NCBI RefSeq assembly: GCF_050320075.1
Contig: NZ_CP190018.1
Reading direction: 5' to 3' (one strand)
From: Escherichia coli
GTDB taxonomy: Bacteria > Pseudomonadota > Gammaproteobacteria > Enterobacterales > Enterobacteriaceae
Length of the DNA: 64,000 nt
The translations under genes and the position numbers were made by a program. The first letter of the stretch is position 1. Each line of letters opens with the position of its first letter. The notes below the pieces were generated by a model. It saw only the letters and a list, made by a program, of their open reading frames with translations, ran no database searches and was not told where the DNA came from. Positions 13,687 through 31,797 of this stretch are shown here, one piece after another.

Positions 13687-13776
13687 GGAGAGATGCCGGA
13701 GCGGCTGAACGGACCGGTCTCGAAAACCGGAGTAGGGGCAACTCTACCGGGGGTTCAAATCCCCCTCTCTCCGCCA
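13687..13776 (+). tRNA. serU: tRNA-Ser (CGA), integration target of the prophage
   Basis: GGAGAGATGCCGGAGCGGCTGAACGGACCGGTCTCGAAAACCGG...CTCTCCGCCA, 90 nt with long variable arm; 3' 62 nt repeated at 61595-61656. Confidence 0.9.
13715..13776 (+). repeat. attL core (3' 62 nt of serU)
   Basis: Identical to 61595-61656. Confidence 0.85.
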
Positions 13777-13828: not shown

Positions 13829-14854
13829 TTACTTGGAATATTTTCTTGGAATATTTTCAGGTAACGGGACATCAAGTGTCGGTGAAACTTTAACCTTCCT
13901 GTCATAGATTAGCACTTGCCCCTCGGTTTTGTGACCAGAGAAAAGTTGCTTATCCCGACTGCTTCCTTCATAGTCTGAAATTCCTTTCGCCTTCAGATCA
14001 TGAAAGGTGAAGTCGGTTAAAATACCTGAAATTTTGCCTGCGCGATTTCTTGCTTCTACCCACATTTCGTTAAAGCCTTTGTACATATATCGGTTGCCGT
14101 ATTGATTGCTGATTACATAGGCGGATGTTGGTAACTGTTTTGCTTTTTCGATCGCCGCCTGTAATCGTGGACTCCATGCTTTTATCTGTTTTTTTCCTGT
14201 TTTCCCTTGCTGGATAAAGATCCCGTCGTTTCCAATCTGCTCCCATTTCAGCGATAACACATCGGAAACCCTCGCTGCACACAGATAGGCAATTTCCATT
14301 GCGATAAAAACAGGAAGAGGTGCAACGCTTAATACTGCCTGGTATTCTTTGTCGGTTACATATCGTTCGCGGTTTTTGGCCTTGAATTTACTTACACCTG
14401 CACATGGGTTAGCCTTCACGTACCCTCGCTCATACCCCCAACTGTAAACGCGGGACATACTGCTTTTTTCATGGTTGGCTTGCGTTTTACTCTGTTCCCC
14501 TCTCTTGTCCATGTATCGACGGATGTGTTCTGGTTTTATGGAATCTGCCGGCACCTTACCGAATACGGCAAGCAACTTTTTTTGATGTTGCAGATAATCT
14601 TTTTGTGTTCTTGGACTGAGGTCACTGTAATAGGCGCTGGCGAGGAATTTTTCCCACAAGCGACCGAATGTCATTGCACGATCGCGATTATTTACAGTTT
14701 CCTCATACTTTTTCCATAAAGCAGCTAAACCATCCTTGATGGCGGTTAGTGTTACAGATTCTCTGGATGTTGGTTTCCATACATAACTATATTTATTTGG
14801 GTATACATTTGGAGGTAATTTTTCGTGTTCAGGATTTTTCCTTCGTCTTCCCAT
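13829..14854 (-). CDS. int: Phage integrase, tyrosine recombinase
   Basis: 341-aa ORF immediately adjacent to tRNA att site; typical lambdoid Int length and position. Confidence 0.8.
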   Translation of the reverse strand: MGRRRKNPEHEKLPPNVYPNKYSYVWKPTSRESVTLTAIKDGLAALWKKYEETVNNRDRAMTFGRLWEKFLASAYYSDLSPRTQKDYLQHQKKLLAVFGKVPADSIKPEHIRRYMDKRGEQSKTQANHEKSSMSRVYSWGYERGYVKANPCAGVSKFKAKNRERYVTDKEYQAVLSVAPLPVFIAMEIAYLCAARVSDVLSLKWEQIGNDGIFIQQGKTGKKQIKAWSPRLQAAIEKAKQLPTSAYVISNQYGNRYMYKGFNEMWVEARNRAGKISGILTDFTFHDLKAKGISDYEGSSRDKQLFSGHKTEGQVLIYDRKVKVSPTLDVPLPENIPRKYSK

Positions 14855-15057
14855 CAGATCGCACCAAAATTCGGCTCTACCTCGCGTGGTGGTAAAGTTT
14901 TATTGCAGGTAAATAGATCCCGGCTGACAATCGGTTTGCCACTACGATTGGTATAGAACGGAAGCCCGTTTTCCATTAACCATTTTCGCTGGTGGCTTGC
15001 ATATTTGCAGCCCGTTAATATTAGCAATTCATCTTCGGTTAAAAATAAGCTGCTCAT
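14854..15057 (-). CDS. Putative excisionase-like small protein
   Basis: 67-aa ORF directly upstream of and overlapping int start; position typical of xis. Confidence 0.45.
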   Translation of the reverse strand: MSSLFLTEDELLILTGCKYASHQRKWLMENGLPFYTNRSGKPIVSRDLFTCNKTLPPREVEPNFGAI

Positions 15058-15115
15058 AGCTATATCTCATAACCGCCGCTAACTATATACGGTTAGCGGC
15101 AATTAGGGTTGAACA

Positions 15116-17416
15116 TTAAAAATCAGCCTGACTCGGGATCAGTTTTTGCCAGATAGCTGAAACGTATTTTGCCTGGTAACGAGCGTCATCAAGTGCATTA
15201 TGGCGCTCACCTTCGAATGGAATAGCCGTTCTGGCATCGAAGTCTATGGCTTTCCCCAGCTCAACGATTGTGCGTACATCGCGATCGTTGTAGTAACGCC
15301 ACGGGCAGGGGATCCCCTGCCGTTCGTATGAACGGCGCAAAATCGTGTTGTCGAAGTTGGCTCCATTTCCCCAGACCTGAACAAAAAATTCACCGGAGTT
15401 TTCGTCGATAAATTCCCGCAATTGTAACAGTGCATCATCTAACGGGATTTCATCGGTCATAATGGCAGATTGCGCTTCGCGTGATTGCTTAAGCCACCAT
15501 TTAATGGTGTCCCGATCAATGACTCCGCCAGCAGTTTCCAGATCGATAGTCTTACTAAATTCCGGTCCCATATCTCCGGTTTGCGGATCGAAAAATATTG
15601 CACCTATTGAGATGATCGGGGCATCAGGATTTTTTCCCATGGTTTCAAGGTCGATCATTAGATGGTCACACGTCCTGCTGGTGGATGTGATTTCGTGATG
15701 ACCATTCACCGTAATTAAGGGATCTGCCGTCTCGCCAGTTTTACTATCGCTGGCGTGGTCCTGAGCGCTGCCAGCATTCTCCTTGTGTGGATGTTCAGCG
15801 CCTTCCATTTCCTCCGGATCATTTTCCTGAACTTCAACCTGATTCTCTTCATCGAATGTTTTCTGGTATGTTGCGTCGCCCATCACCGCGCCACAATCAG
15901 GGCAGTTGCCGCCACCGCTCTGACCGCAGGCGGAGCAGACTTTTTCCGGTTCCTGTTGCGCTACTGGTTCGGATTGTTTCGTTTCTGGCTCGTTTTGTAA
16001 CGCATTTGGGCTGTTTTGTTCCGCTTTTTGGTCGTTCCGTTCCGATTCATGCTGGTTCTGGTTCACAGAATCGCGAGTCTGGATCCCCTTGACCCATTTC
16101 GGATCATTAGGGTCGCTAATCCCCTCAACAAATTCACCACGCGATACAGCAAGTAACTTATCGGCGTCAGGCTGGCTGATATTGGCTGCCTGCATAATTT
16201 TGTTTACTTCGTCAGCGGTGACTTTTACTTGGTTAGCGGAACTCACCTGCGACTGAGCATCCAGCGACTGCGCGTTCTGGCAATGTTCAGTTGTATCCGG
16301 TTCCATTGTTTCAGTTGTTGCCTGTTCACCTGCCATTGCGTCAGATGGTTGTGGTTTTTCTTCTTCTGTTTCACGCTCAGTAACCACCTCGCGGTTAATT
16401 TCTTCCAGGATATCTTTTTCCGGCGTATGCCGGGCAGCTGTGAGAGTTTCCTTGCTGGGGTTCTCGTGATCAGTTTCCGTCAAATAGGCGTTGATATACC
16501 CCTGAAGGCGTCCCGGGTAGTGATAAAATTCAGGGTGTGCGCTTCGGATAAGTGCAAAAATAGCGGCGCGGGAATAGTCCAGAATACCCGGGGTTGCACG
16601 AAGTGCTGCGGACCATTCTTTGAACGGACTTTCTTTTTTCAGGACTACTTCTTTTGCGCGACGATAAACGCTGCCCGGAATTTCATAAATATTAAAATCC
16701 ATCGGAAGTGTGGCTGCTGCAATCTCCACATCCAGTGTGTCGAGGGTGTGTACTAAATTCGGACTGCGATCGGTTTTGTTCCCACCGCCAGCATTAGCAC
16801 CGGAAGCCGTGCGGGTGATGCGTGAAACACGATTTCCTTTCATCCACTCTTTTGTCAGCAGACCCCGATCAGTGTAGTCAGCGTCCAGGTATGCTTCGAA
16901 AAAAGCAGTTATTAGTCCCAGGTCTGAATTACCAGGATTAGGGAAAACTTTGTCAGTGTCACGAACCAGTTTGTGGAGGTCGCGAATCTCCAGCGAGTCG
17001 AGCAGACTGGTTTTATGCGAAATAGCCAGGGCAGTAACAGCCGGTAGTTCTTCAGCCCGTGCAATGTGTAATGCCTGGAGTTCGTCGCGTGAAACGTGCG
17101 TTACTGGTTTTTCGCTGCCGTGTTGAGCAAGCCAACGAATGGGCAGTTCCTGACCGGAGACAGGTAGAAGCATGCTCTCCTCAATCTCAGTCATGTCTTC
17201 GCCGTTGATGTTGGTATTATCAGTGCTGGCTGATTTGTCCTGAACAGAGGGGGAAGGGCCGATAAATGTCATTGTGATGCCATCTTTCCCGCCTTTTTCA
17301 TAGCGGTTGCAGAATTCAGTATCAAACACGCCTTCTGGCGGAAGGTCGTCAACAACGGGCAAATTGACGCGGACGGGTTTTTTAAAGTCGTCTTCATCAT
17401 AATCGTTGTCATCCAT
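15116..17416 (-). CDS. Large phage protein with C-terminal DnaQ-like (DEDDh) 3'-5' exonuclease domain and central Cys4 zinc ribbon
   Basis: 766 aa; motifs [27 protein letters not shown] in C-terminal 180 aa; CSACG...CPDCG ribbon; acidic/Gln-rich linker. Confidence 0.6.
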
Positions 17417-17649
17417 TGCGGTAATGCAGCGGGAGATTGCAACAGATAATTTTTTTGCTGTAGTCCAGTAAAAACCACCTTTAATTCCAGGCGTTTTCTT
17501 ACTTTGTCATTTTTTGCTTCGCAATATAGTGCAAATTCTTCTTTATCAGTGCTCATTATTGATAAACCTCATCACAGATTTAAGGGTGAACAAATCTCTG
17601 CCATTGCTGACATATAAGAATGAAACTGGATATTTATTACGGTGCTGTT

Positions 17650-17841
17650 TTAAAATCCTGCCGGGATTTCGTTATTATCCTGGTGAATAACTTTATCGAC
17701 CGGATAACAGTTGCCTGGAATTTTCTGTTCGGTTGCTGCTGCCATACATTCCTGCATTGTTCTGTGAACACTGACTGCAATATCAACTGGCTCTCCGGAA
17801 ACAAGAAAAACCGTCAGAATAAGTGCAAATACTGGATTCAT
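17650..17841 (-). CDS. YdfD-like small protein (Qin-type)
   Basis: MNPVFALILTVFLVSG... hydrophobic N-terminus; immediately downstream of dicB as in Qin (recollection). Confidence 0.45.
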   Translation of the reverse strand: MNPVFALILTVFLVSGEPVDIAVSVHRTMQECMAAATEQKIPGNCYPVDKVIHQDNNEIPAGF

Positions 17842-18026
17842 TGTGCACATCCTTTTGGCATCAGACGTAAACGGGCCAGCATTGAAACAATGCATACTTT
17901 ATTTAATAACTCCCGTTCGTGTTTTCTTTTGTTAATGGCCTCTTCAGTAAATACAGGATTACTGATAGTGACACCAATTTCAAAACAACCTTCAGACGTA
18001 TTAACGTTTGGTAATAACGTTTTCAT
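17838..18026 (-). CDS. dicB: Cell division inhibitor DicB
   Basis: 62-aa MKTLLPNVNTSEGCFEIGVTISNPVFTEEAINKRKHERELLNKVCIVSMLARLRLMPKGCAQ, matches my recollection of K-12 DicB almost residue for residue. Confidence 0.75.
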   Translation of the reverse strand: MKTLLPNVNTSEGCFEIGVTISNPVFTEEAINKRKHERELLNKVCIVSMLARLRLMPKGCAQ

Positions 18027-18195
18027 TATCGCGCCCTCAACAATGAGTTTTGTGATGCGGTGCCTGGTGCCTCCAGGTGACGTTAACCAGTTAACAATTA
18101 ACGCCGGATACAGAGAATCCACCCATAACACTGTTTTTGGTTTTAACTGTTCCGCGTGCGCTTAGCCGCATTCACCGCATCACAAAATTCACTTT

Positions 18196-18253
18196 AAAAA
18201 GGGCGGCAGAGCAGTCACGGAGTAAAACTGATACCGCCAAACGTCACCAGAAA
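18196..18253 (-). ncRNA. dicF: DicF small RNA (ftsZ-targeting)
   Basis: Reverse complement reads TTTCTGGTGACGTTTGGCGGTATCAGTTTTACTCCGTGACTGCTCTGCCGCCCTTTTT, matching the DicF sequence I recall; lies just upstream of dicB. Confidence 0.7.
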
Positions 18254-18594
18254 ATTGATAACAGAGGGCGTTGCAGCGGGGTTGTCACTTAAGCGTATGG
18301 TCAACCTGACAACCCGGTGTCCTCAACGGGGGAAGGAATAACCCCGCCATACTTACCGCCGCGCCATTTCGCGGATTGCCACAACCGGAAGCGCACGGTC
18401 GACGAAAATTTAACGACAGGCTATCTATGAACCAGCTACCTCGCCGTGCGCTTTCGCGTTATGGTCTGACTTTTCAGGGAAATATCCTTTCAGTAAACTG
18501 TCAGTGCCGGATGCTCACCCGTGTCCGGCGCACGCACTCCACCTCACCCGTGGAGAACTCCTTAATTGCTAACCTTAGCTTTGTTGATTAGCTA

Positions 18595-18813
18595 CTAACG
18601 CGGGTATGTAATCATTCTGGCAATGCTTAATGCCGCTGCTTTTTCCAGATTGGTGATATCCTGCTCCAGAGCGGACAGATTTTCAGCCTGCTTAGCCCTG
18701 GCTTCATTAGCCCATTTCAGATCCTGCGCTGCATTAATTTTCTGGCGCATCCACTCATAAAGATCATCATCGGTATAGTCTGGCGCGATGATGACGGGTT
18801 CTCGTTTCTGCAC
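18595..18813 (-). CDS. YdfC-like small protein
   Basis: 72-aa ORF in the ydfABC position of a dicB operon. Confidence 0.45.
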   Translation of the reverse strand: MQKREPVIIAPDYTDDDLYEWMRQKINAAQDLKWANEARAKQAENLSALEQDITNLEKAAALSIARMITYPR

Positions 18814-18842
18814 GCTGATTCCTCGCGGTGCTGTTTCGCTTA

Positions 18843-18971
18843 TCAGCCGTTAGATTTTGCCGAACTGGAAAGCGCCTGTTTAAATTCGCTGAAGCTGAGA
18901 GCTTCTTCGCCTTCGGCAAGGCCTTCGAAGTATTCTTCGTAAGCCTTTTCCATGATTGTGTCGAAATCCAT
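18843..18971 (-). CDS. YdfB-like small acidic protein (42 aa)
   Basis: Sub-threshold ORF MDFDTIMEKAYEEYFEGLAEGEEALSFSEFKQALSSSAKSNG, tightly packed between neighbours. Confidence 0.4.
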   Translation of the reverse strand: MDFDTIMEKAYEEYFEGLAEGEEALSFSEFKQALSSSAKSNG

Positions 18972-18972
18972 A

Positions 18973-28053: not shown

Positions 28054-29096
28054 ATACATATCTGGATTATCACCTGTTACGGTAAAAAGTGATTGCTTAC
28101 TGTTTTTGTGAATGGCATTGCAGCAGCCGGATAATGTCAGTGCTGGCTGACGGTGTGCTGGTGGCGGGTGTGGTGGTTGTTGCTTTCCCGTTGCTGAAAA
28201 AGAAAACGCCAGACTGTTAGCCGGGTATCAGTTAGCGGGAGAAATTTTTAAATACTTCACAATTCAGGCGGTTGACTGTTGTCTGGTTTGCGGGGAGTTT
28301 GTTAAAAGAAACTGGCATGGTGAATCCCCCTGTGCGGAGGGGCAATCAGCGAGTAGGTATATGGGATAATCGCGGATTCAGGTGCTGGTACTGAATTCAC
28401 CGGGAGGCACCCGGCACCATGCAATGGCACATAGCGCCACTCTCCAGCCCCTCTCCGGAGGGGCTGTTTATATTGATTTTGTCAGATGTGAGTAAACTCC
28501 TTATGGACTTTGTTGTTTTAGTCCATAAGGACATATTTGCAGAGTGCAACGGTTATTAAAGCATTCATTCAATACGTTATCTGTATTTGTAGGGCATTCC
28601 TGGCTGTTTTTGATTAAATTCCAGAATGTTTTATTGAATGGTACTACGTTGTAAATGGTTACAGGTAGCACTTTGTTATTGAGCATGATACCTGTGTGAG
28701 TCAGTGTAAATATACTTTCAGGAGGTAAGAAAGCATCCGATTGATATCAGATTATTAATTTTACTTTACTCCATATGACTGAAAAAGATATTCCGCATGA
28801 TGGCTGGATAACTGTATCAATCACAATCCACTTCATTTAGCTTCCTTGTTTATGCCTTGCTGGTGATGTTCTGAAAAGTATAAATGATATTTTTGAATGT
28901 AAACCATAGCGCAGAATTATTTTTCTGATGTTGTTTATTGTTTATTTAAATGCAGGGTGGTTTATATCTCGTCTTGTAGTTTATCCATGCATATCTGCTT
29001 GATAATCAGGTTTTTATTTAAGGTATGGTTTTGTGTTTTTTCTGTATTACATATCCGGTATTTTAAAGAATTATTTTTCAGATAGTGGAAAGAACC

Positions 29097-29285
29097 ATGG
29101 CATTTAAACACTATGATGTTGTCAGGGCGGCGCCGCCGTCAGATCTTGCGGAAAAGCTGACACATAAACTGAAAGAGGGCGGGCAGCCGTTTGGTAGTCC
29201 GGTGGCCATAACCCCTTATACCCTGATGCAGGCGATTGCAGCAGAAGGTGATGTGGTGGTCAGTGGTGCAACTGAGCCGGAGTGA
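29097..29285 (+). CDS. Small conserved phage protein upstream of lysis genes
   Basis: 62-aa ORF MAFKHYDVVRAAPPSDLAEKL... Confidence 0.4.
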   Translation: MAFKHYDVVRAAPPSDLAEKLTHKLKEGGQPFGSPVAITPYTLMQAIAAEGDVVVSGATEPE

Positions 29286-29592
29286 TACTACGTCATCGTA
29301 CTGGCCCGGCATTCCAGGCCATAAAAGACAGTCTGGCAGTGGGACTAAATGCACTGACGCTGATGGATATTACCAAAAATGTAACGTATGGCGTTGAGAT
29401 AGAAAGTCTGGCGCTGGAGATAAATGCACCGGCATCATCATAAAAAGTGAGCCAGTCAAATGGAAGGTATCGTTAAACTCACCGGTAGTGTCAGTGGGTC
29501 GTCTGAGACGCTTGCATGAGTTATCAGAGCCATCAGTAGTTAACTGGTGGCTTTTTTATTGTTTTCAGCTTCCGGATAACGGGAGACGGGGT

Positions 29593-29808
29593 ATGGACCA
29601 GATGGAAAAAATCACAACAGGTGTGTCATACACCACGTCAGCGGTGGGAACGGGCTACTGGTTCCTGCAGTTGCTGGACAGGGTTTCCCCGTCTCAGTGG
29701 GCGGCAATAGGCGTGCTGGGGAGTCTGCTGTTTGGGCTGCTGACATATCTGACTAACCTGTATTTCAAAATCAGAGAGGACCGTCGTAAGGCGGCACGGG
29801 GAGAGTAA
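29593..29808 (+). CDS. Holin, EssD/S21 pinholin type
   Basis: 71 aa [71 protein letters not shown]; close match to recalled K-12 EssD; dual-start M..M. Confidence 0.8.
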
Positions 29809-29812
29809 TTCA

Positions 29813-30157
29813 ATGACTCAAAACTATGAACTGATTGTGAAAGGGATCCGCAATTTTGAGAATAAAGTTACGGTAACTTTAGCATTACAGGACAAAGAAC
29901 GCTTTGACGGTGAAATTTTTGACCTGGACATCTCGCTGGACCGTGTTGAAGGTGCTGCGCTGGAGTTTTATGAGGCAGCGGCCAGAAGGAGCATCAGACA
30001 GGTCTTCCTGGATGTCGCTGCCGGGTTATGTGAAGGGGATGAGCAGTCGCCGGAAAAGCGCCCCGTAATTTTAGAGGCGCAGAATGTATGGATAACCTAC
30101 AAAGGAAAGCTACCGGGAAGGATTACTGGTTCCCTGAAGACTCCGCCGAAATGGTAG
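29813..30157 (+). CDS. Hypothetical protein inserted between holin and endolysin
   Basis: 114-aa ORF, GGAGAG RBS, 5 bp after holin stop. Confidence 0.45.
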   Translation: MTQNYELIVKGIRNFENKVTVTLALQDKERFDGEIFDLDISLDRVEGAALEFYEAAARRSIRQVFLDVAAGLCEGDEQSPEKRPVILEAQNVWITYKGKLPGRITGSLKTPPKW

Positions 30158-30395
30158 TTTTGCCAGCATAATTTTCTTCCAGCAATGCCGCCAGCCACTT
30201 GAAAGAATTTTGTTGTTCCTGGGACCATTTGGGGTTGCGTGATTCAAAATGAATGGATGCCAGCGTTGGCAGCATTTGCTCCCTGGGAATTGATAAGGCC
30301 AGATGTGAAAATGCAACAGTGAGGGCATTTACATCATCCCGAAGCCTGAAAATGCAGTCGAGCAACTCCTGTAGAGAAATGGTGCTATTGTCCAT
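30123..30395 (-). CDS. Hypothetical protein, antisense to late operon
   Basis: 90-aa ORF with AGAGGA RBS; converges on and overlaps previous ORF by 35 bp. Confidence 0.3.
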   Translation of the reverse strand: MDNSTISLQELLDCIFRLRDDVNALTVAFSHLALSIPREQMLPTLASIHFESRNPKWSQEQQNSFKWLAALLEENYAGKTTISAESSGNQ

Positions 30396-30500
30396 AAATA
30401 ATCCTCTTGATTGTCTTTACCTTTTCCCCGCCTGATTCAACAGGCCGGGACAGATAAACATATCCAGGGTTCAGAAACCGATAAATCCTGATAAATATCC

Positions 30501-31034
30501 ATGAACGCAAAAATCAAATACGGCCTGTCAGCTGCAGTTCTGGCGCTGATTGGAGCAGGCGCATCAGCTCCTCAGATACTTGACCAGTTTCTGGATGAAA
30601 AAGAGGGTAACCACACTACGGCATACCGCGATGGTTCCGGCAACTGGACCATCTGTCGGGGGGCCACGATGGTGGATGGAAAACCCGTTTTTCCCGGTAT
30701 GAAACTGTCGAAGGAAAAATGCGACCAGGTCAACGCCATTGAGCGTGATAAGGCGCTGGCATGGGTGGAGAAAAACATCAAAGTGCCATTGAGCGAACCC
30801 CAGAAAGCGGGGATCGCGTCATTCTGTCCGTACAACATTGGTCCCGGTAAGTGTTTCCCGTCGACGTTTTATAAACGAATTAATGCAGGTGATCGCAGGG
30901 GAGCGTGTGAGGCGATTCGCTGGTGGATTAAGGACGGTGGCAGAGACTGCCGTATTCGTTCAAACAACTGCTACGGTCAGGTATCCCGTCGTGACCAGGA
31001 GAGCGCGCTGGCGTGCTGGGGTATCGACAGATAA
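30501..31034 (+). CDS. SAR endolysin (lysozyme family)
   Basis: 177 aa; Gly/Ala-rich N-terminal SAR segment GLSAAVLALIGAGASA; lysozyme-like body; follows holin. Confidence 0.75.
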   Translation: MNAKIKYGLSAAVLALIGAGASAPQILDQFLDEKEGNHTTAYRDGSGNWTICRGATMVDGKPVFPGMKLSKEKCDQVNAIERDKALAWVEKNIKVPLSEPQKAGIASFCPYNIGPGKCFPSTFYKRINAGDRRGACEAIRWWIKDGGRDCRIRSNNCYGQVSRRDQESALACWGIDR

Positions 31035-31232
31035 GCAGAATATTTTGCTGAAAAATAAGGCATGGCCACGCGGGCGGATAACATGAAATCCTGCGAAGTG
31101 GCGAAACGTAAGTGAATAAAAGTAAAAACCCCGTTTGTTGGCACCAAGCGGGGTTTTGTGTTTCCTGACTCCGGAAAAGTCAAAGGAGAAAGTGTGTTTG
31201 ATTTTAGCAAACTGATTCGGGAGATTCGAGTG

Positions 31233-31331
31233 ATGGCTGAAAAATTATCCACCTGGAAGTTCATTCTTATCTGGCTGGTGTTTGTGATTATGGCCTCTGG
31301 TTATTTCATCGGTCAGATACGCTGGTGGTGA
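31233..31331 (+). CDS. Small single-TM peptide (32 aa) translationally coupled to Rz
   Basis: [32 protein letters not shown]; stop 2 nt before Rz ATG. Confidence 0.3.
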
Positions 31332-31332
31332 A

Positions 31333-31797
31333 ATGAACCGCGTACTGTGCGTGGTCATCATTGCCCTGCTGGTGGCCTGTGGTGCGCTTAGTCTGGGGCT
31401 GAATCATTACCGTGATAACGCCATTACCTACAAAGCCCAGCGCGACAAAAATGTCAGAGAACTGAAGCTGGCGAACGCGGCAATTACTGACATGCAGATG
31501 CGTCAGCGTGATGTTGCTGCGCTCGATGCAAAATACACGAAGGAGTTAGCTGATGCGAAAGCTGAAAATGATGCTCTGCGTGATGATGTTGCCGCTGGTC
31601 GTCGTCGGTTGCACATCAAAGCAGTCTGTCAGTCAGTGCGTGAAGCCACCACCGCCTCCGGCGTGGATAATGCAGCCTCCCCCCGATTGGCAGACACCGC
31701 TGAACGGGATTATTTCACCCTCAGAGCGCGACTGATAATAATGCAAAAACAACTTGAAGGGGCACAGCTATACATTCGAGAGCAATGCCTCAGATAA
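31333..31797 (+). CDS. Spanin, inner-membrane subunit (Rz)
   Basis: 154 aa; N-terminal TM then coiled-coil; embedded +1-frame lipoprotein gene. Confidence 0.75.
31553..31735 (+). CDS. Spanin, outer-membrane lipoprotein subunit (Rz1), embedded in Rz
   Basis: 60 aa; lipobox LVVVGC; proline-rich ([15 protein letters not shown]). Confidence 0.65.

What the first reader, a model, noticed from the sequence alone, without database searches (positions are those of the whole stretch)
15116..17416. Large DnaQ-like exonuclease in the recombination-module slot, with no partner annealase
Where lambda has exo-bet-gam, this prophage has one 766-aa protein whose C-terminus carries all three DEDDh motifs, preceded by a zinc ribbon and a long acidic linker. 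No RecT/Bet/Erf-like gene is found between it and the repressor. The N-terminal ~500 aa are unassigned.
Basis: partly seen in the sequence, partly recalled or inferred. Interest (0 to 1): 0.4.

Follow-up and report, generated by a model that had tools for sequence, protein, structure and literature searches.

The report
RecE scaffold carrying a DexA-like exonuclease
This is a very common E. coli prophage gene in which the non-catalytic front part of the RecE recombination nuclease is joined to a 3'-to-5' exonuclease like phage T4 DexA; it has no annealing partner because this type of phage appears to rely on the host's RecBCD/Chi recombination, and the copy in this window has a frameshift near its start.

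Summary

1. The "unassigned" N-terminus, the zinc ribbon and the acidic linker are the non-catalytic region of Rac RecE (59% identity to RecE residues 50-592). Only RecE's PD-(D/E)XK nuclease has been replaced, at a sharp junction at window 15714. The replacement is a DEDDh domain whose closest solved relative is T4 DexA, a 3'-5' DNA exonuclease.

2. The 766-aa ORF is the remainder of an 813-aa gene. This window has a 1-nt deletion at codon 23/24.

3. In Rac, recT lies downstream of recE. Here xis and int follow directly.

In 71 related viral loci, 61 of 61 DEDDh-headed genes lack RecT and 10 of 10 RecE-headed genes have it.

The prophage (13715-61656) has 12 Chi sites, 10 in the active orientation, all in the right arm. 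[quoted passage not shown]

The gene covers at least 80% of its length in 1234 of 5426 complete E. coli genomes and occurs in viable phages (mEp460, Tritos). Its biochemistry is well predicted, but its biological role has not been tested. The finding is ordinary as a sequence and modestly interesting as a module swap.

The parts
15116..17416 (-). 766-aa ORF as reported; it equals residues 48-813 of the common 813-aa protein
   Evidence: ORF list. It is 100% identical to P0001 (766 aa) and to residues 48-813 of P0002.
17417..17556 (-). 5' remnant of the gene: the native ATG at 17556 and codons 1-47 of the 813-aa form, put out of frame by a 1-nt deletion between 17489 and 17488
   Evidence: DNA alignment with the intact XJ6.1 allele (A1), the sequence itself, and the 813-aa homologues. 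The resulting 95-aa ORF 17269..17556 is the frameshift product.
15714..17556 (-). RecE-type non-catalytic scaffold, with folded domains at about aa 1-103, 120-250 and 259-400 of the 813-aa form, then a disordered acidic linker with a conserved SDPNDPKW motif and the Cys4 motif
   Evidence: BLASTP to K-12 RecE 50-592 at 59% identity. PF06630. NF007259 positions 1-603. AlphaFold2 model with 290 residues at pLDDT >= 90. DNA homology to RecE-type genes ends at 15714.
15893..15937 (-). CxxC-x7-CxxC motif (aa 494-508), a putative zinc ribbon
   Evidence: Present in the sequence and in K-12 RecE. Weak DZR hit, E 0.08. Low AlphaFold2 confidence. The cysteines occur in only a minority of scaffold homologues.
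15116..15713 (-). DEDDh head cassette (aa ~568-766), the part that replaces RecE's PD-(D/E)XK nuclease and recT
   Evidence: Mosaic junction at 15714 against three RecE-type genes. The head is 99% identical in proteins with different N-termini.
15149..15664 (-). DexA-like / Rv2179c-like DEDDh 3'-5' exonuclease domain (aa 585-756) with catalytic residues D589, E591, D689, H739 and D744
   Evidence: PF16473, E 7e-68. phmmer to PDB 8KEL, E 1.6e-6. Invariant columns in the alignment. AlphaFold2 pLDDT 89.6, with the best Foldseek match to T4 DexA at E 1.5e-11.
14854..15057 (-). Excisionase (DUF4224), 59 nt downstream of the exonuclease stop codon, so there is no room for recT
   Evidence: Pfam and PHROG matches.
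13829..14854 (-). Tyrosine integrase
   Evidence: Pfam PF00589 and PHROG 1.
17650..17841 (-). ydfD-like gene (DUF1482), immediately upstream in the operon
   Evidence: Pfam and NCBI annotation of the identical prophage.
17838..18026 (-). dicB, a cell-division inhibitor gene
   Evidence: Pfam DicB, E 2e-38, and NCBI annotation.
18201..18252 (-). DicF small RNA
   Evidence: Rfam RF00039, 76.7 bits against a cut-off of 48.
18595..19128 (-). ydfC, ydfB and ydfA, the small genes at the start of the Qin-type dicBF early-left operon
   Evidence: Pfam DUF1391 and PHROG matches, and NCBI annotation.
19426..19845 (-). HTH repressor (DicA/CI-like)
   Evidence: Pfam HTH_3 and PHROG transcriptional regulator families.
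13715..13776 (+). attL core, the 3' end of tRNA-Ser(CGA); the identical 62-nt copy at 61595-61656 is attR, so the prophage spans 13715-61656
   Evidence: Direct repeat D2 and the tRNA scan.
14988..31375 (+). Cluster of 12 Chi sites (GCTGGTGG). Ten are on the + strand (14988, 15677, 20436, 22750, 25102, 25160, 28157, 30919, 31321, 31368) and two on the - strand (25566, 25618). There are none in the late region 33.2-61.6 kb.
   Evidence: Pattern search found 14 in the window against 1.97 expected, with 0 of 100 shuffles reaching 14. Chi is the commonest octamer of the right arm.

Best explanation
**What it is (shown).** The gene is a mosaic. Its first ~570 codons are the non-catalytic N-terminal scaffold of RecE (exonuclease VIII of the Rac prophage). 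RecE's 5'-3' PD-(D/E)XK nuclease domain, together with the downstream recT gene, has been replaced at one sharp junction (window 15714) by a DEDDh 3'-5' exonuclease domain whose closest characterised relative is phage T4 DexA. It is the last gene of a Qin-type early-left operon (ydfA-ydfB-ydfC-dicF-dicB-ydfD-exo) and lies just before xis and int.

**Expression (inferred).** It is probably transcribed from the repressor-controlled early-left promoter on induction.

**How it most likely works (inferred).** It is a metal-dependent 3'-5' exonuclease acting on DNA ends or single-stranded DNA. The RecE-type scaffold would bring it to whatever partner or substrate that scaffold recognises in RecE itself, which is still unknown. 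It is not one half of an exonuclease/annealase recombinase: its polarity is wrong for making the 3' tails an annealase needs, and the DEDDh-headed form never has RecT next to it.

**Why there is no annealase (Chi pattern shown, dependence on the host inferred).** The prophage has no recombination module of its own. It belongs to the class of lambdoid phages that carry many correctly oriented Chi sites near the right end and use host RecBCD/RecA.

**The copy in this window (deletion shown, consequence inferred).** A 1-nt deletion at codon 23/24 separates the native start from the rest of the gene. The 766-aa product would lack half of the first folded domain and has no ribosome-binding site of its own, so this copy is probably weakly expressed or inactive.
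For: **Architecture**
- PF06630 plus PF16473.
- 59% identity to RecE 50-592 and none to RecE 606-866.
- NF007259 matched only at positions 1-603 of 877.

**Junction**
- DNA homology to three RecE-type genes stops at 15714 in every case.

**Catalytic centre and fold**
- The DEDDh residues are invariant across 50 sequences that include T4 DexA.
- Best sequence match in the PDB is 8KEL/8KEN.
- The AlphaFold2 model (pLDDT 89.6) best matches DexA at E 1.5e-11, ahead of RNase T at about 1e-7 and oligoribonucleases.
- DexA is a 3'-5' DNA exonuclease (PMC12153337; T4 record).

**Partner linkage**
- Of 71 classifiable IMG/VR loci sharing >= 93% identical scaffold, 61 of 61 with a DEDDh head have no RecT and 10 of 10 with a RecE head have RecT directly downstream (Fisher p 2e-12, but the loci are related to each other).
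- The same pattern holds in distant relatives at 38-48% identity: P0126, P0142 and P0149 are followed directly by xis-int, while P0164 and P0176 are followed by RecT.

**Host-recombination strategy**
- Ten of 12 Chi sites are in the active orientation, all in the right arm, and Chi is the top octamer there.
- The viable phages Tritos and mEp460 carry the gene, have no annotated annealase, and have 9/2 and 7/2 Chi sites on top/bottom strands.
- Upstream regions of DEDDh loci have 0.18 active Chi per kb against 0.02 per kb for RecET loci.
- This matches the class defined in PMC12315714.

**Frameshift**
-.

**Operon**
-.
- No separate promoter or terminator signal above chance.
Against: - No activity, polarity or substrate has been measured for this protein or any close relative that I could identify. 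DNA rather than RNA is inferred only from its being closer to DexA than to RNase T, Orn or Rv2179c.
- A 3'-5' exonuclease might interfere with RecBCD/Chi recombination rather than help it. The Chi association may simply reflect the absence of recET, not a positive role for this gene.
- Zheng et al. explicitly decline to count int-proximal DnaQ-type nucleases as recombination genes.
- One RecET-type locus (L011) also has several Chi sites.
- The linkage statistics come from closely related, non-independent prophages.
Confidence: 0.6

Rival explanations
1. It is an exclusion or defence nuclease, like the HREX protein EcD. The DexA-like head would selectively degrade cytosine-modified (5hmC-type) DNA of incoming T-even phages, protecting the lysogen or the induced cell rather than serving the prophage's own DNA metabolism.
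For: - Kang et al. 2025 (PMC12153337) show that an E. coli DexA homologue, EcD, degrades 5hmC-DNA but not unmodified DNA and protects against T4 even at leaky expression.
- They report that DexA homologues are most frequent in Escherichia and absent from K-12. That fits this prophage family, because K-12's copy (ydfE) is cut off by IS2 before the head.
- The paper never mentions prophages, so many of their "bacterial" homologues may be genes like this one.
- The catalytic residues are conserved.
- Its neighbours in the operon, such as DicB, are accessory genes.
Against: - The residues the paper ties to 5hmC recognition are not both kept. W152 aligns with Tyr709. D169 aligns with Ala723, although Asp725 and Asp727 are nearby and the alignment is uncertain there.
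- The Asp equivalent to D90, whose loss defines EcD, is retained as D661.
- No PADLOC model matches.
- The gene lies in a repressor-controlled lytic operon with no promoter of its own above chance.
- I could not establish how EcD (HAK9828821.1) is related to this head.
- This idea does not explain the fusion to a RecE scaffold.
Confidence: 0.2
2. It is an exoribonuclease, as the Pfam and NCBI names suggest. The head would trim or degrade RNA 3' ends, for example host or phage transcripts or the DicF precursor made from the same operon.
For: - PF16473 is named after the Mycobacterium exoribonuclease Rv2179c, and NCBI's annotation calls many copies "3'-5' exoribonuclease".
- The next-best structural matches are RNase T and oligoribonucleases.
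- DicF is processed from this operon's transcript (established knowledge; DicF located).
Against: - The closest relative by both sequence and structure is the DNA exonuclease DexA.
- Rv2179c itself is not found in the PDB search at E <= 1.
- RNase T also acts on DNA; the matched structures are complexes with DNA.
- The scaffold comes from a DNA recombination nuclease.
- The annotated name follows the Pfam label, not an experiment.
Confidence: 0.1
3. It is half of an unrecognised two-component recombinase: an annealase of a new type is hidden among the small neighbouring genes or within the N-terminal scaffold itself.
For: - The scaffold's three confidently folded domains have no informative structural match, so a DNA-binding or annealing activity cannot be formally excluded.
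- Full-length RecE improves linear-linear recombination relative to the nuclease domain alone (PMC11611040).
Against: - All neighbouring ORFs are 42-72 aa proteins or known families, which is too small for known annealases.
- RecE-type proteins with the same scaffold still keep RecT in 10 of 10 loci, so the scaffold does not replace an annealase.
- 3'-5' polarity yields 5' tails, not the 3' tails used by known annealases.
- The Chi pattern points to use of the host pathway.
Confidence: 0.04

Closest known systems
RecE (exodeoxyribonuclease VIII) of the Rac prophage, E. coli K-12
   Same: - The N-terminal ~570 residues are homologous (59% overall, above 90% in blocks), including the Cys4 motif and the acidic linker.
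- It occupies the same place in the early-left operon, after a kil-type division inhibitor and before xis-int.
   Different: - The catalytic PD-(D/E)XK domain (RecE 606-866, DUF3799) is absent and is replaced by a DEDDh domain of opposite polarity.
- There is no recT, racC or ralR.
- It scores below the NCBIfam equivalog cut-off, 946 bits against 1269.
- The "exodeoxyribonuclease VIII" label on phage records is therefore a mis-annotation.
T4 DexA (exonuclease A; PDB 8KEL/8KEN) and its E. coli homologue EcD
   Same: - The DEDDh fold and all five catalytic residues are shared.
- DexA is the best match by both sequence and structure.
- Both fall in Pfam PF16473.
   Different: - Only about 22-27% identity.
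- DexA's extra loops are missing.
- The residues DexA uses for tetramer formation (S87) and 5hmC recognition (W152, D169) align with Pro, Tyr and Ala.
- DexA and EcD are small single-domain proteins, whereas here the domain is the C-terminal head of an 813-aa protein.
YdfE of the K-12 Qin prophage and the mEp460 / CP-933P-type 823-aa exonuclease
   Same: - Same operon (dicB-ydfD-exo), same linker and a 99% identical DEDDh head.
- K-12 ydfE is the first 256 aa of that form, cut by IS2.
   Different: - The first ~245 residues are unrelated to RecE's N-terminus.
- The window's form instead carries the RecE-type N1/N2 domains.
[quoted passage not shown] 2025, PMC12315714; Bobay et al. 2013, as cited there)
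   Same: - No annealase, SSB or RecBCD inhibitor was found.
- There are 10 Chi sites in the active orientation and 2 in the inactive one, clustered toward the right end.
- Chi is the commonest octamer, followed by TGCTGGTG, just as described for LLS.
   Different: - LLS's early-left genes are different (yfbR, yfdQ, yfdP).
- That paper mentions int-proximal DnaQ-type nucleases only in passing and does not treat them as recombination genes.
- Dependence on RecBCD has not been tested for this prophage.
Lambda Exo-Bet-Gam and other exonuclease/annealase (SynExo) pairs
   Same: An early-left position and a DNA-end-processing nuclease.
   Different: The polarity is opposite and the fold is unrelated. 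There is no annealase and no RecBCD inhibitor.

Membership tests
DEDDh (DnaQ-like) 3'-5' exonucleases, PF16473 / DexA-like branch | Exo I motif D-x-E | tested here: met
   D589 and E591 (DLET) are invariant in 50 of 50 aligned sequences including T4 DexA D7/E9.
DEDDh (DnaQ-like) 3'-5' exonucleases, PF16473 / DexA-like branch | Exo II aspartate | tested here: met
   D689 (NFDN) is invariant and aligns with DexA D119.
DEDDh (DnaQ-like) 3'-5' exonucleases, PF16473 / DexA-like branch | Exo III motif H-x4-D (the 'h' subtype) | tested here: met
   H739 is invariant and D744 is present in 49 of 50; they align with DexA H186/D191.
DEDDh (DnaQ-like) 3'-5' exonucleases, PF16473 / DexA-like branch | Full-length profile match above the curated threshold | tested here: met
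   PF16473: 228 bits against a cut-off of 27, covering profile positions 2-177 of 177.
DEDDh (DnaQ-like) 3'-5' exonucleases, PF16473 / DexA-like branch | RNase H-like DEDD fold | tested here: met
   AlphaFold2 pLDDT 89.6. Foldseek finds DexA at E 1.5e-11 and TM 0.65, then RNase T and Orn.
DEDDh (DnaQ-like) 3'-5' exonucleases, PF16473 / DexA-like branch | Metal-dependent 3'-5' exonuclease activity | not testable with these tools
   Needs an enzyme assay.
RecE / exodeoxyribonuclease VIII (NCBIfam NF007259 equivalog) | N-terminal non-catalytic region (PF06630 and beyond) | tested here: met
   PF06630, E 6e-36. 59% identity to RecE 50-592.
RecE / exodeoxyribonuclease VIII (NCBIfam NF007259 equivalog) | C-terminal PD-(D/E)XK 5'-3' nuclease domain (DUF3799; RecE 606-866) | tested here: not met
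   No DUF3799 hit, whereas K-12 RecE gives E 4e-28. No BLASTP similarity beyond RecE residue 592.
RecE / exodeoxyribonuclease VIII (NCBIfam NF007259 equivalog) | Whole-protein score at or above the curated cut-off | tested here: not met
   946 bits against a cut-off of 1269, matching only positions 1-603 of 877.
RecE / exodeoxyribonuclease VIII (NCBIfam NF007259 equivalog) | recT immediately downstream | tested here: not met
   xis follows after 59 nt. 0 of 61 DEDDh-headed loci have RecT, against 10 of 10 RecE-headed loci.
Two-component exonuclease/annealase recombinase (SynExo: Exo-Bet, RecE-RecT) | A 5'-3' dsDNA exonuclease plus an adjacent single-strand annealing protein | tested here: not met
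   The fold implies 3'-5' polarity. No RecT, Bet or Erf family hit in the early-left or early-right genes, nor in the NCBI annotation of the same prophage.
[quoted passage not shown] 2025) | No recognisable annealase, SSB, Rec nuclease or anti-RecBCD gene in the early-left operon | tested here: met
   The only nuclease is the int-proximal DnaQ-type gene, which that paper does not count as a Rec-module gene.
[quoted passage not shown] 2025) | Eight or more Chi sites in the active orientation and six or fewer in the inactive one, concentrated toward the right end | tested here: met
   Ten on the + strand and two on the - strand, all between 14988 and 31375, upstream of the terminase genes at about 33.2 kb. 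None lie in the late region.
[quoted passage not shown] 2025) | Growth enhanced by host RecBCD | not testable with these tools
   Needs phage growth assays in recB/recC hosts.
HREX / EcD-type modified-DNA-specific exonuclease (Kang et al. 2025) | Trp (DexA W152) and Asp (D169) used for 5hmC recognition | tested here: inconclusive
   W152 aligns with Tyr709. D169 aligns with Ala723, with Asp725 and Asp727 nearby. The alignment of this loop is uncertain.
HREX / EcD-type modified-DNA-specific exonuclease (Kang et al. 2025) | Loss of the tetramer-forming Asp (DexA D90 is Ala in EcD) | tested here: not met
   The D90 equivalent is Asp661. The S87 equivalent is Pro658.
HREX / EcD-type modified-DNA-specific exonuclease (Kang et al. 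2025) | Selective degradation of 5hmC-DNA and protection against T4 | not testable with these tools
   Needs nuclease assays and plaque assays.

The most novel reading that the evidence does not exclude
The long-unexplained N-terminal ~570 residues of RecE are a portable scaffold. In nature the scaffold is exchanged, at one fixed junction, between two alternative cassettes of opposite polarity: [PD-(D/E)XK nuclease + RecT] or [DexA-like DEDDh nuclease, no annealase]. A third form carries no recognised nuclease. The DEDDh cassette marks phages that have given up their own recombinase and become rich in Chi sites. Its product would then have a dedicated role that has not been described, either cooperating with host RecBCD/RecA at phage DNA ends or acting as an exclusion nuclease against modified DNA. 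In either case the scaffold supplies a function that does not depend on which nuclease it carries.
Probability: 0.3. Interest if true: 0.55.

Novelty: new variant of a known kind. Interest (0 to 1): 0.33.

Why it matters
- **As a sequence it is ordinary.** The identical protein is in public databases under generic names, and the gene is present in about a quarter of complete E. coli genomes.
- **Annotation.** "Exodeoxyribonuclease VIII" on phage records and "exoribonuclease" on bacterial records both mislead. The protein lacks RecE's nuclease, and its nearest characterised relative is a DNA exonuclease.
- **RecE's N-terminal region.** The strict either/or linkage (RecE head with RecT, DEDDh head without) on an almost identical scaffold gives a clean natural experiment. 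What the N-terminal 600 residues of RecE do has been unknown since the protein was described, and whatever it is must make sense with nucleases of either polarity.
- **DexA homologues.** The "bacterial" DexA homologues recently proposed as an anti-T4 defence are, at least in this family, prophage early genes, which changes how that proposal should be read.
- **Chi-rich, Rec-module-less phages.** The window adds a fully worked example, with Chi counts and orientation, to this recently defined class of lambdoid phages.

Tried and rejected
**Checks that led nowhere**
- **Programmed frameshift at the 5' end.** I first suspected slippage at the A7 run (CAAAAAAAT). Alignment with the intact allele instead shows a simple 1-nt deletion 30 nt upstream, at CCTAGGA. 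The 813-aa form is read in one frame through the A7 run.
- **ATT start.** NCBI's annotation of strain Ec-U3 uses an ATT start giving 789 aa. This looks like a workaround for the same deletion, not a real start.
- **Zinc ribbon as a defining feature.** It is weak in profiles and present in only a minority of scaffold homologues.
- **Own promoter or terminator around the gene.** Nothing above the shuffled background.
- **Known defence-system models.** PADLOC gave no hit for the protein or its small neighbours.
- **Identifying EcD (HAK9828821.1).** I looked among cluster members of short homologues and did not find it. The paper's supplements are not held as text.
- **Supplements of Zheng et al.** These are not held either, so I could not see how mEp460-type phages were classified there.

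**Searches that failed**
I replaced it with a single conserved segment.
- One literature search matched "receptor" instead of RecE, and one was rejected for a short term.
- The literature search for Rv2179c in phages found nothing relevant.
Full report
**Observation.** The ORF at 15116..17416 (minus strand, 766 aa) exists as described.
- Its C-terminus matches Pfam PF16473, the Rv2179c-like 3'-5' exonuclease domain, over the whole profile (aa 585-756, E 7e-68). It also gives a weak RNase_T hit.
- I aligned it with 48 diverse homologues taken from a search of 1.84 billion cluster representatives, plus T4 DexA. D589, E591, D689 and H739 are invariant, and D744 is present in 49 of 50. These are exactly the DexA catalytic residues D7, E9, D119, H186 and D191.
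- An AlphaFold2 model of the domain (pLDDT 89.6) finds T4 DexA (8KEN/8KEL) as the best solved structure at E 1.5e-11. RNase T follows at about 1e-7, then the oligoribonucleases.
- DexA is also the only PDB sequence hit.

**The N-terminus is not unassigned.**
- Residues 11-569 align with residues 50-592 of K-12 RecE at 59% identity, with long blocks above 90%. This stretch includes the CxxC-x7-CxxC motif and the acidic linker.
- Pfam PF06630 (Exonuc_VIII) and positions 1-603 of the 877-position NCBIfam RecE model match.
- RecE's PD-(D/E)XK nuclease (DUF3799, residues 606-866) is absent. The protein scores 946 bits against the model's cut-off of 1269, so it is not a RecE equivalog.
- At the DNA level, homology to three RecE-type genes (two IMG/VR loci and K-12 Rac) stops at the same base, window 15714, which is codon ~568. 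The last ~199 codons are therefore a separate cassette.
- A review of the field states that the RecE N-terminal domain has unknown function and that full-length RecE improves linear-linear recombination (PMC11611040).

**The 766-aa ORF is a truncated reading.**
- Nearly all close homologues are 813 aa. For example, P0005 is seen on 474 contigs, whereas the 766-aa form is seen on 39.
- They start [28 protein letters not shown]....
- The window has the same ATG at 17556 but lacks one base between 17489 and 17488 (CCTAGGA > CCTGGA) relative to the otherwise identical XJ6.1 allele.
- The native reading frame therefore ends as a 95-aa ORF (17269..17556). The long ORF restarts at Met48, which has no Shine-Dalgarno sequence.
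- NCBI's annotation of a strain with the same allele used an ATT start to bridge this.
- In the AlphaFold2 model, residues 1-103 form one compact alpha/beta domain. A product starting at Met48 would lack half of it.

**Surroundings.**
- The prophage runs from 13715 to 61656. It is bounded by a 62-nt repeat of the 3' end of tRNA-Ser(CGA), next to mtfA.
- The early-left operon is of the Qin type: repressor, ydfA, ydfB, ydfC, DicF RNA (Rfam 76.7 bits), dicB, ydfD, the exonuclease, xis, int.
- K-12's ydfE pseudogene is the first 256 aa of the mEp460-type version of this gene, cut off by IS2.
- In Rac the order is kilR-ydaE-racC-recE-recT-ralR-...-xis-int. The annealase would therefore be expected downstream of the nuclease, not between it and the repressor. 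Here xis begins 59 nt after the stop codon.
- No annealase family appears among the early-left or early-right products, nor in NCBI's annotation of the same prophage.

**How general is this?**
- The gene covers at least 80% of its length in 1234 of 5426 complete E. coli genomes. It is also present in isolated phages such as mEp460, Tritos, HannyBb and PhiR42_1.
- Among cluster representatives, the RecE-type scaffold occurs with three kinds of C-terminus: the DEDDh head, the RecE nuclease, or no recognised domain. One protein is fused directly to RecT.
- Gene context is consistent. Three DEDDh-headed relatives at only 38-48% identity are followed directly by xis-int. Two RecE-headed relatives are followed by RecT.
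- I scanned IMG/VR with a conserved scaffold segment and obtained 80 loci at 93-100% identity.
  - 61 have the DEDDh head, and none of them has RecT.
  - 10 have the RecE nuclease, and all have RecT directly downstream.
  - 9 are cut off.
  - Fisher p is 2e-12, although the loci are not independent.
- The nuclease head and RecT thus travel as a unit, and are swapped for the DEDDh head on an almost identical scaffold.

**Why there is no annealase.**
- Zheng, Casjens, Smith and colleagues (PMC12315714) showed that 22% of lambdoid phages have no recombination module. These phages instead carry many Chi sites in the active orientation, concentrated near the right end, and one of them grows better with RecBCD.
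- That paper also notes sporadic DnaQ-type nuclease genes near int, which it does not count as recombination genes.
- The window has 14 Chi sites against 1.97 expected, and 0 of 100 shuffles reach 14. Twelve lie in the prophage: ten on the + strand, which is the lambda-active orientation for entry from the right cos end, and two on the - strand.
- All twelve lie between int and the lysis genes. None lies in the 28 kb of late genes.
- Chi is the commonest octamer of that arm and TGCTGGTG is the second, as reported for phage LLS.
- Tritos and mEp460_ev081 have 9/2 and 7/2 Chi sites (top/bottom strand) and no annotated annealase.
- In the ~6.3 kb upstream of the gene, DEDDh-type loci have 0.18 active-orientation Chi per kb and none in the inactive orientation. 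RecET-type loci have 0.02 per kb.

**Mechanism.**
- *Shown:* the architecture, the intact catalytic centre, the fold, the operon position, the junction, the RecT linkage, the Chi pattern and the frameshift.
- *Inferred:*
  - The head is a metal-dependent 3'-5' exonuclease, most likely acting on DNA.
  - The scaffold brings it to the same unknown partner or substrate as in RecE.
  - It is not part of an exonuclease/annealase pair.
  - The phage uses host RecBCD/RecA.
- The biological role remains open.
- The main rival is the HREX idea of Kang et al. (PMC12153337). In that work an E. coli DexA homologue (EcD) degrades only 5hmC-DNA and protects against T4.
- In this protein the residues they assign to 5hmC recognition align with Tyr and Ala rather than Trp and Asp. 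The Asp whose loss characterises EcD is retained. PADLOC has no matching model, and the gene sits in a repressed lytic operon.
- I could not determine how EcD relates to this head, and the loop alignment is uncertain, so I keep this rival at about 0.2.
- An RNA-directed role gets about 0.1 and a hidden annealase about 0.04.

**Scaffold structure.**
- The AlphaFold2 model of residues 1-560 of the 813-aa form is confident for three domains (1-103 alpha/beta, 120-250 and 259-400 helical). It is disordered in the acidic linker.
- The most conserved stretches across 62 homologues are PVVDDLPxEG (about 61-80) and residues 220-340, which include GxNAGGGxxTDR and PGILDYSRA.

**Verdict.**
- The gene is a common, generically annotated prophage gene whose biochemistry is predictable and whose role is untested.
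- What I could not find stated in the papers I read is that it is a RecE scaffold with a swapped head, and that head type predicts RecT presence without exception in the loci examined.
- This makes it a variant of a known kind, of modest interest.

Noticed in passing
window 24935-25984: The DUF968/YdfU-type HNH gene carries four Chi sites in a symmetric arrangement: two on the + strand (25102, 25160) and two on the - strand (25566, 25618). The same two-plus-two pattern occurs in the homologous gene of phages Tritos and mEp460_ev081.
   Followed up: partly
window 15677-15684: A Chi site in the active orientation lies inside the DEDDh head, only 30 nt from the mosaic junction at 15714. Another lies in xis (14988).
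   Followed up: no
window 18201-18252 (-): A DicF small RNA (Rfam 76.7 bits) lies between ydfC and dicB, so the whole early-left operon is of the Qin dicBF type.
   Followed up: yes
window 13715-13776 and 61595-61656: An exact 62-nt direct repeat of the 3' end of tRNA-Ser(CGA) marks attL and attR of a 47.9-kb prophage inserted next to mtfA and the yeeJ-like adhesin gene.
   Followed up: yes
window 13829-14854 (-): The integrase reads as an intact 341-aa ORF here. NCBI's annotation marks the integrase of the otherwise identical prophages in strains XJ6.1 and Ec-U3 as frameshifted.
   Followed up: no
window 20797-20817 and 21067-21087: An exact 21-nt direct repeat (GCGCGTCACGAAATGTCACGC), 270 nt apart, lies inside the replication-initiator gene. 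It may be an origin element.
   Followed up: no
window 55890-56267: A 189-nt tandem duplication (85% identity) lies inside the 801-aa tail-fibre-like ORF.
   Followed up: no
window 27333-27589: Two prophage-borne tRNA genes (anticodons CAT and TCT) lie downstream of the Q antiterminator. NCBI annotates the CAT one as tRNA-Ile in strain XJ6.1.
   Followed up: no
proteins P0127, P0074, P0137 (database relatives): P0127 (703 aa) is a RecE-type scaffold fused directly to a RecT domain. P0074 (905 aa) has an internal duplication within the DEDDh domain. P0137 (814 aa) has the scaffold but no recognised nuclease, and is followed by a Sipho_Gp157 gene.
   Followed up: partly
L006, L008, L009 (relatives in other genera): In distant DEDDh-headed relatives, the gene just upstream is a small Rrf2-like protein instead of dicB/ydfD. 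L006 lies next to the host exoX gene.
   Followed up: no
phage records ON470612, ON470619, ON470583, OV696610: Close homologues of this gene are labelled 'exodeoxyribonuclease VIII' in deposited phage genomes, although they lack RecE's nuclease domain.
   Followed up: yes
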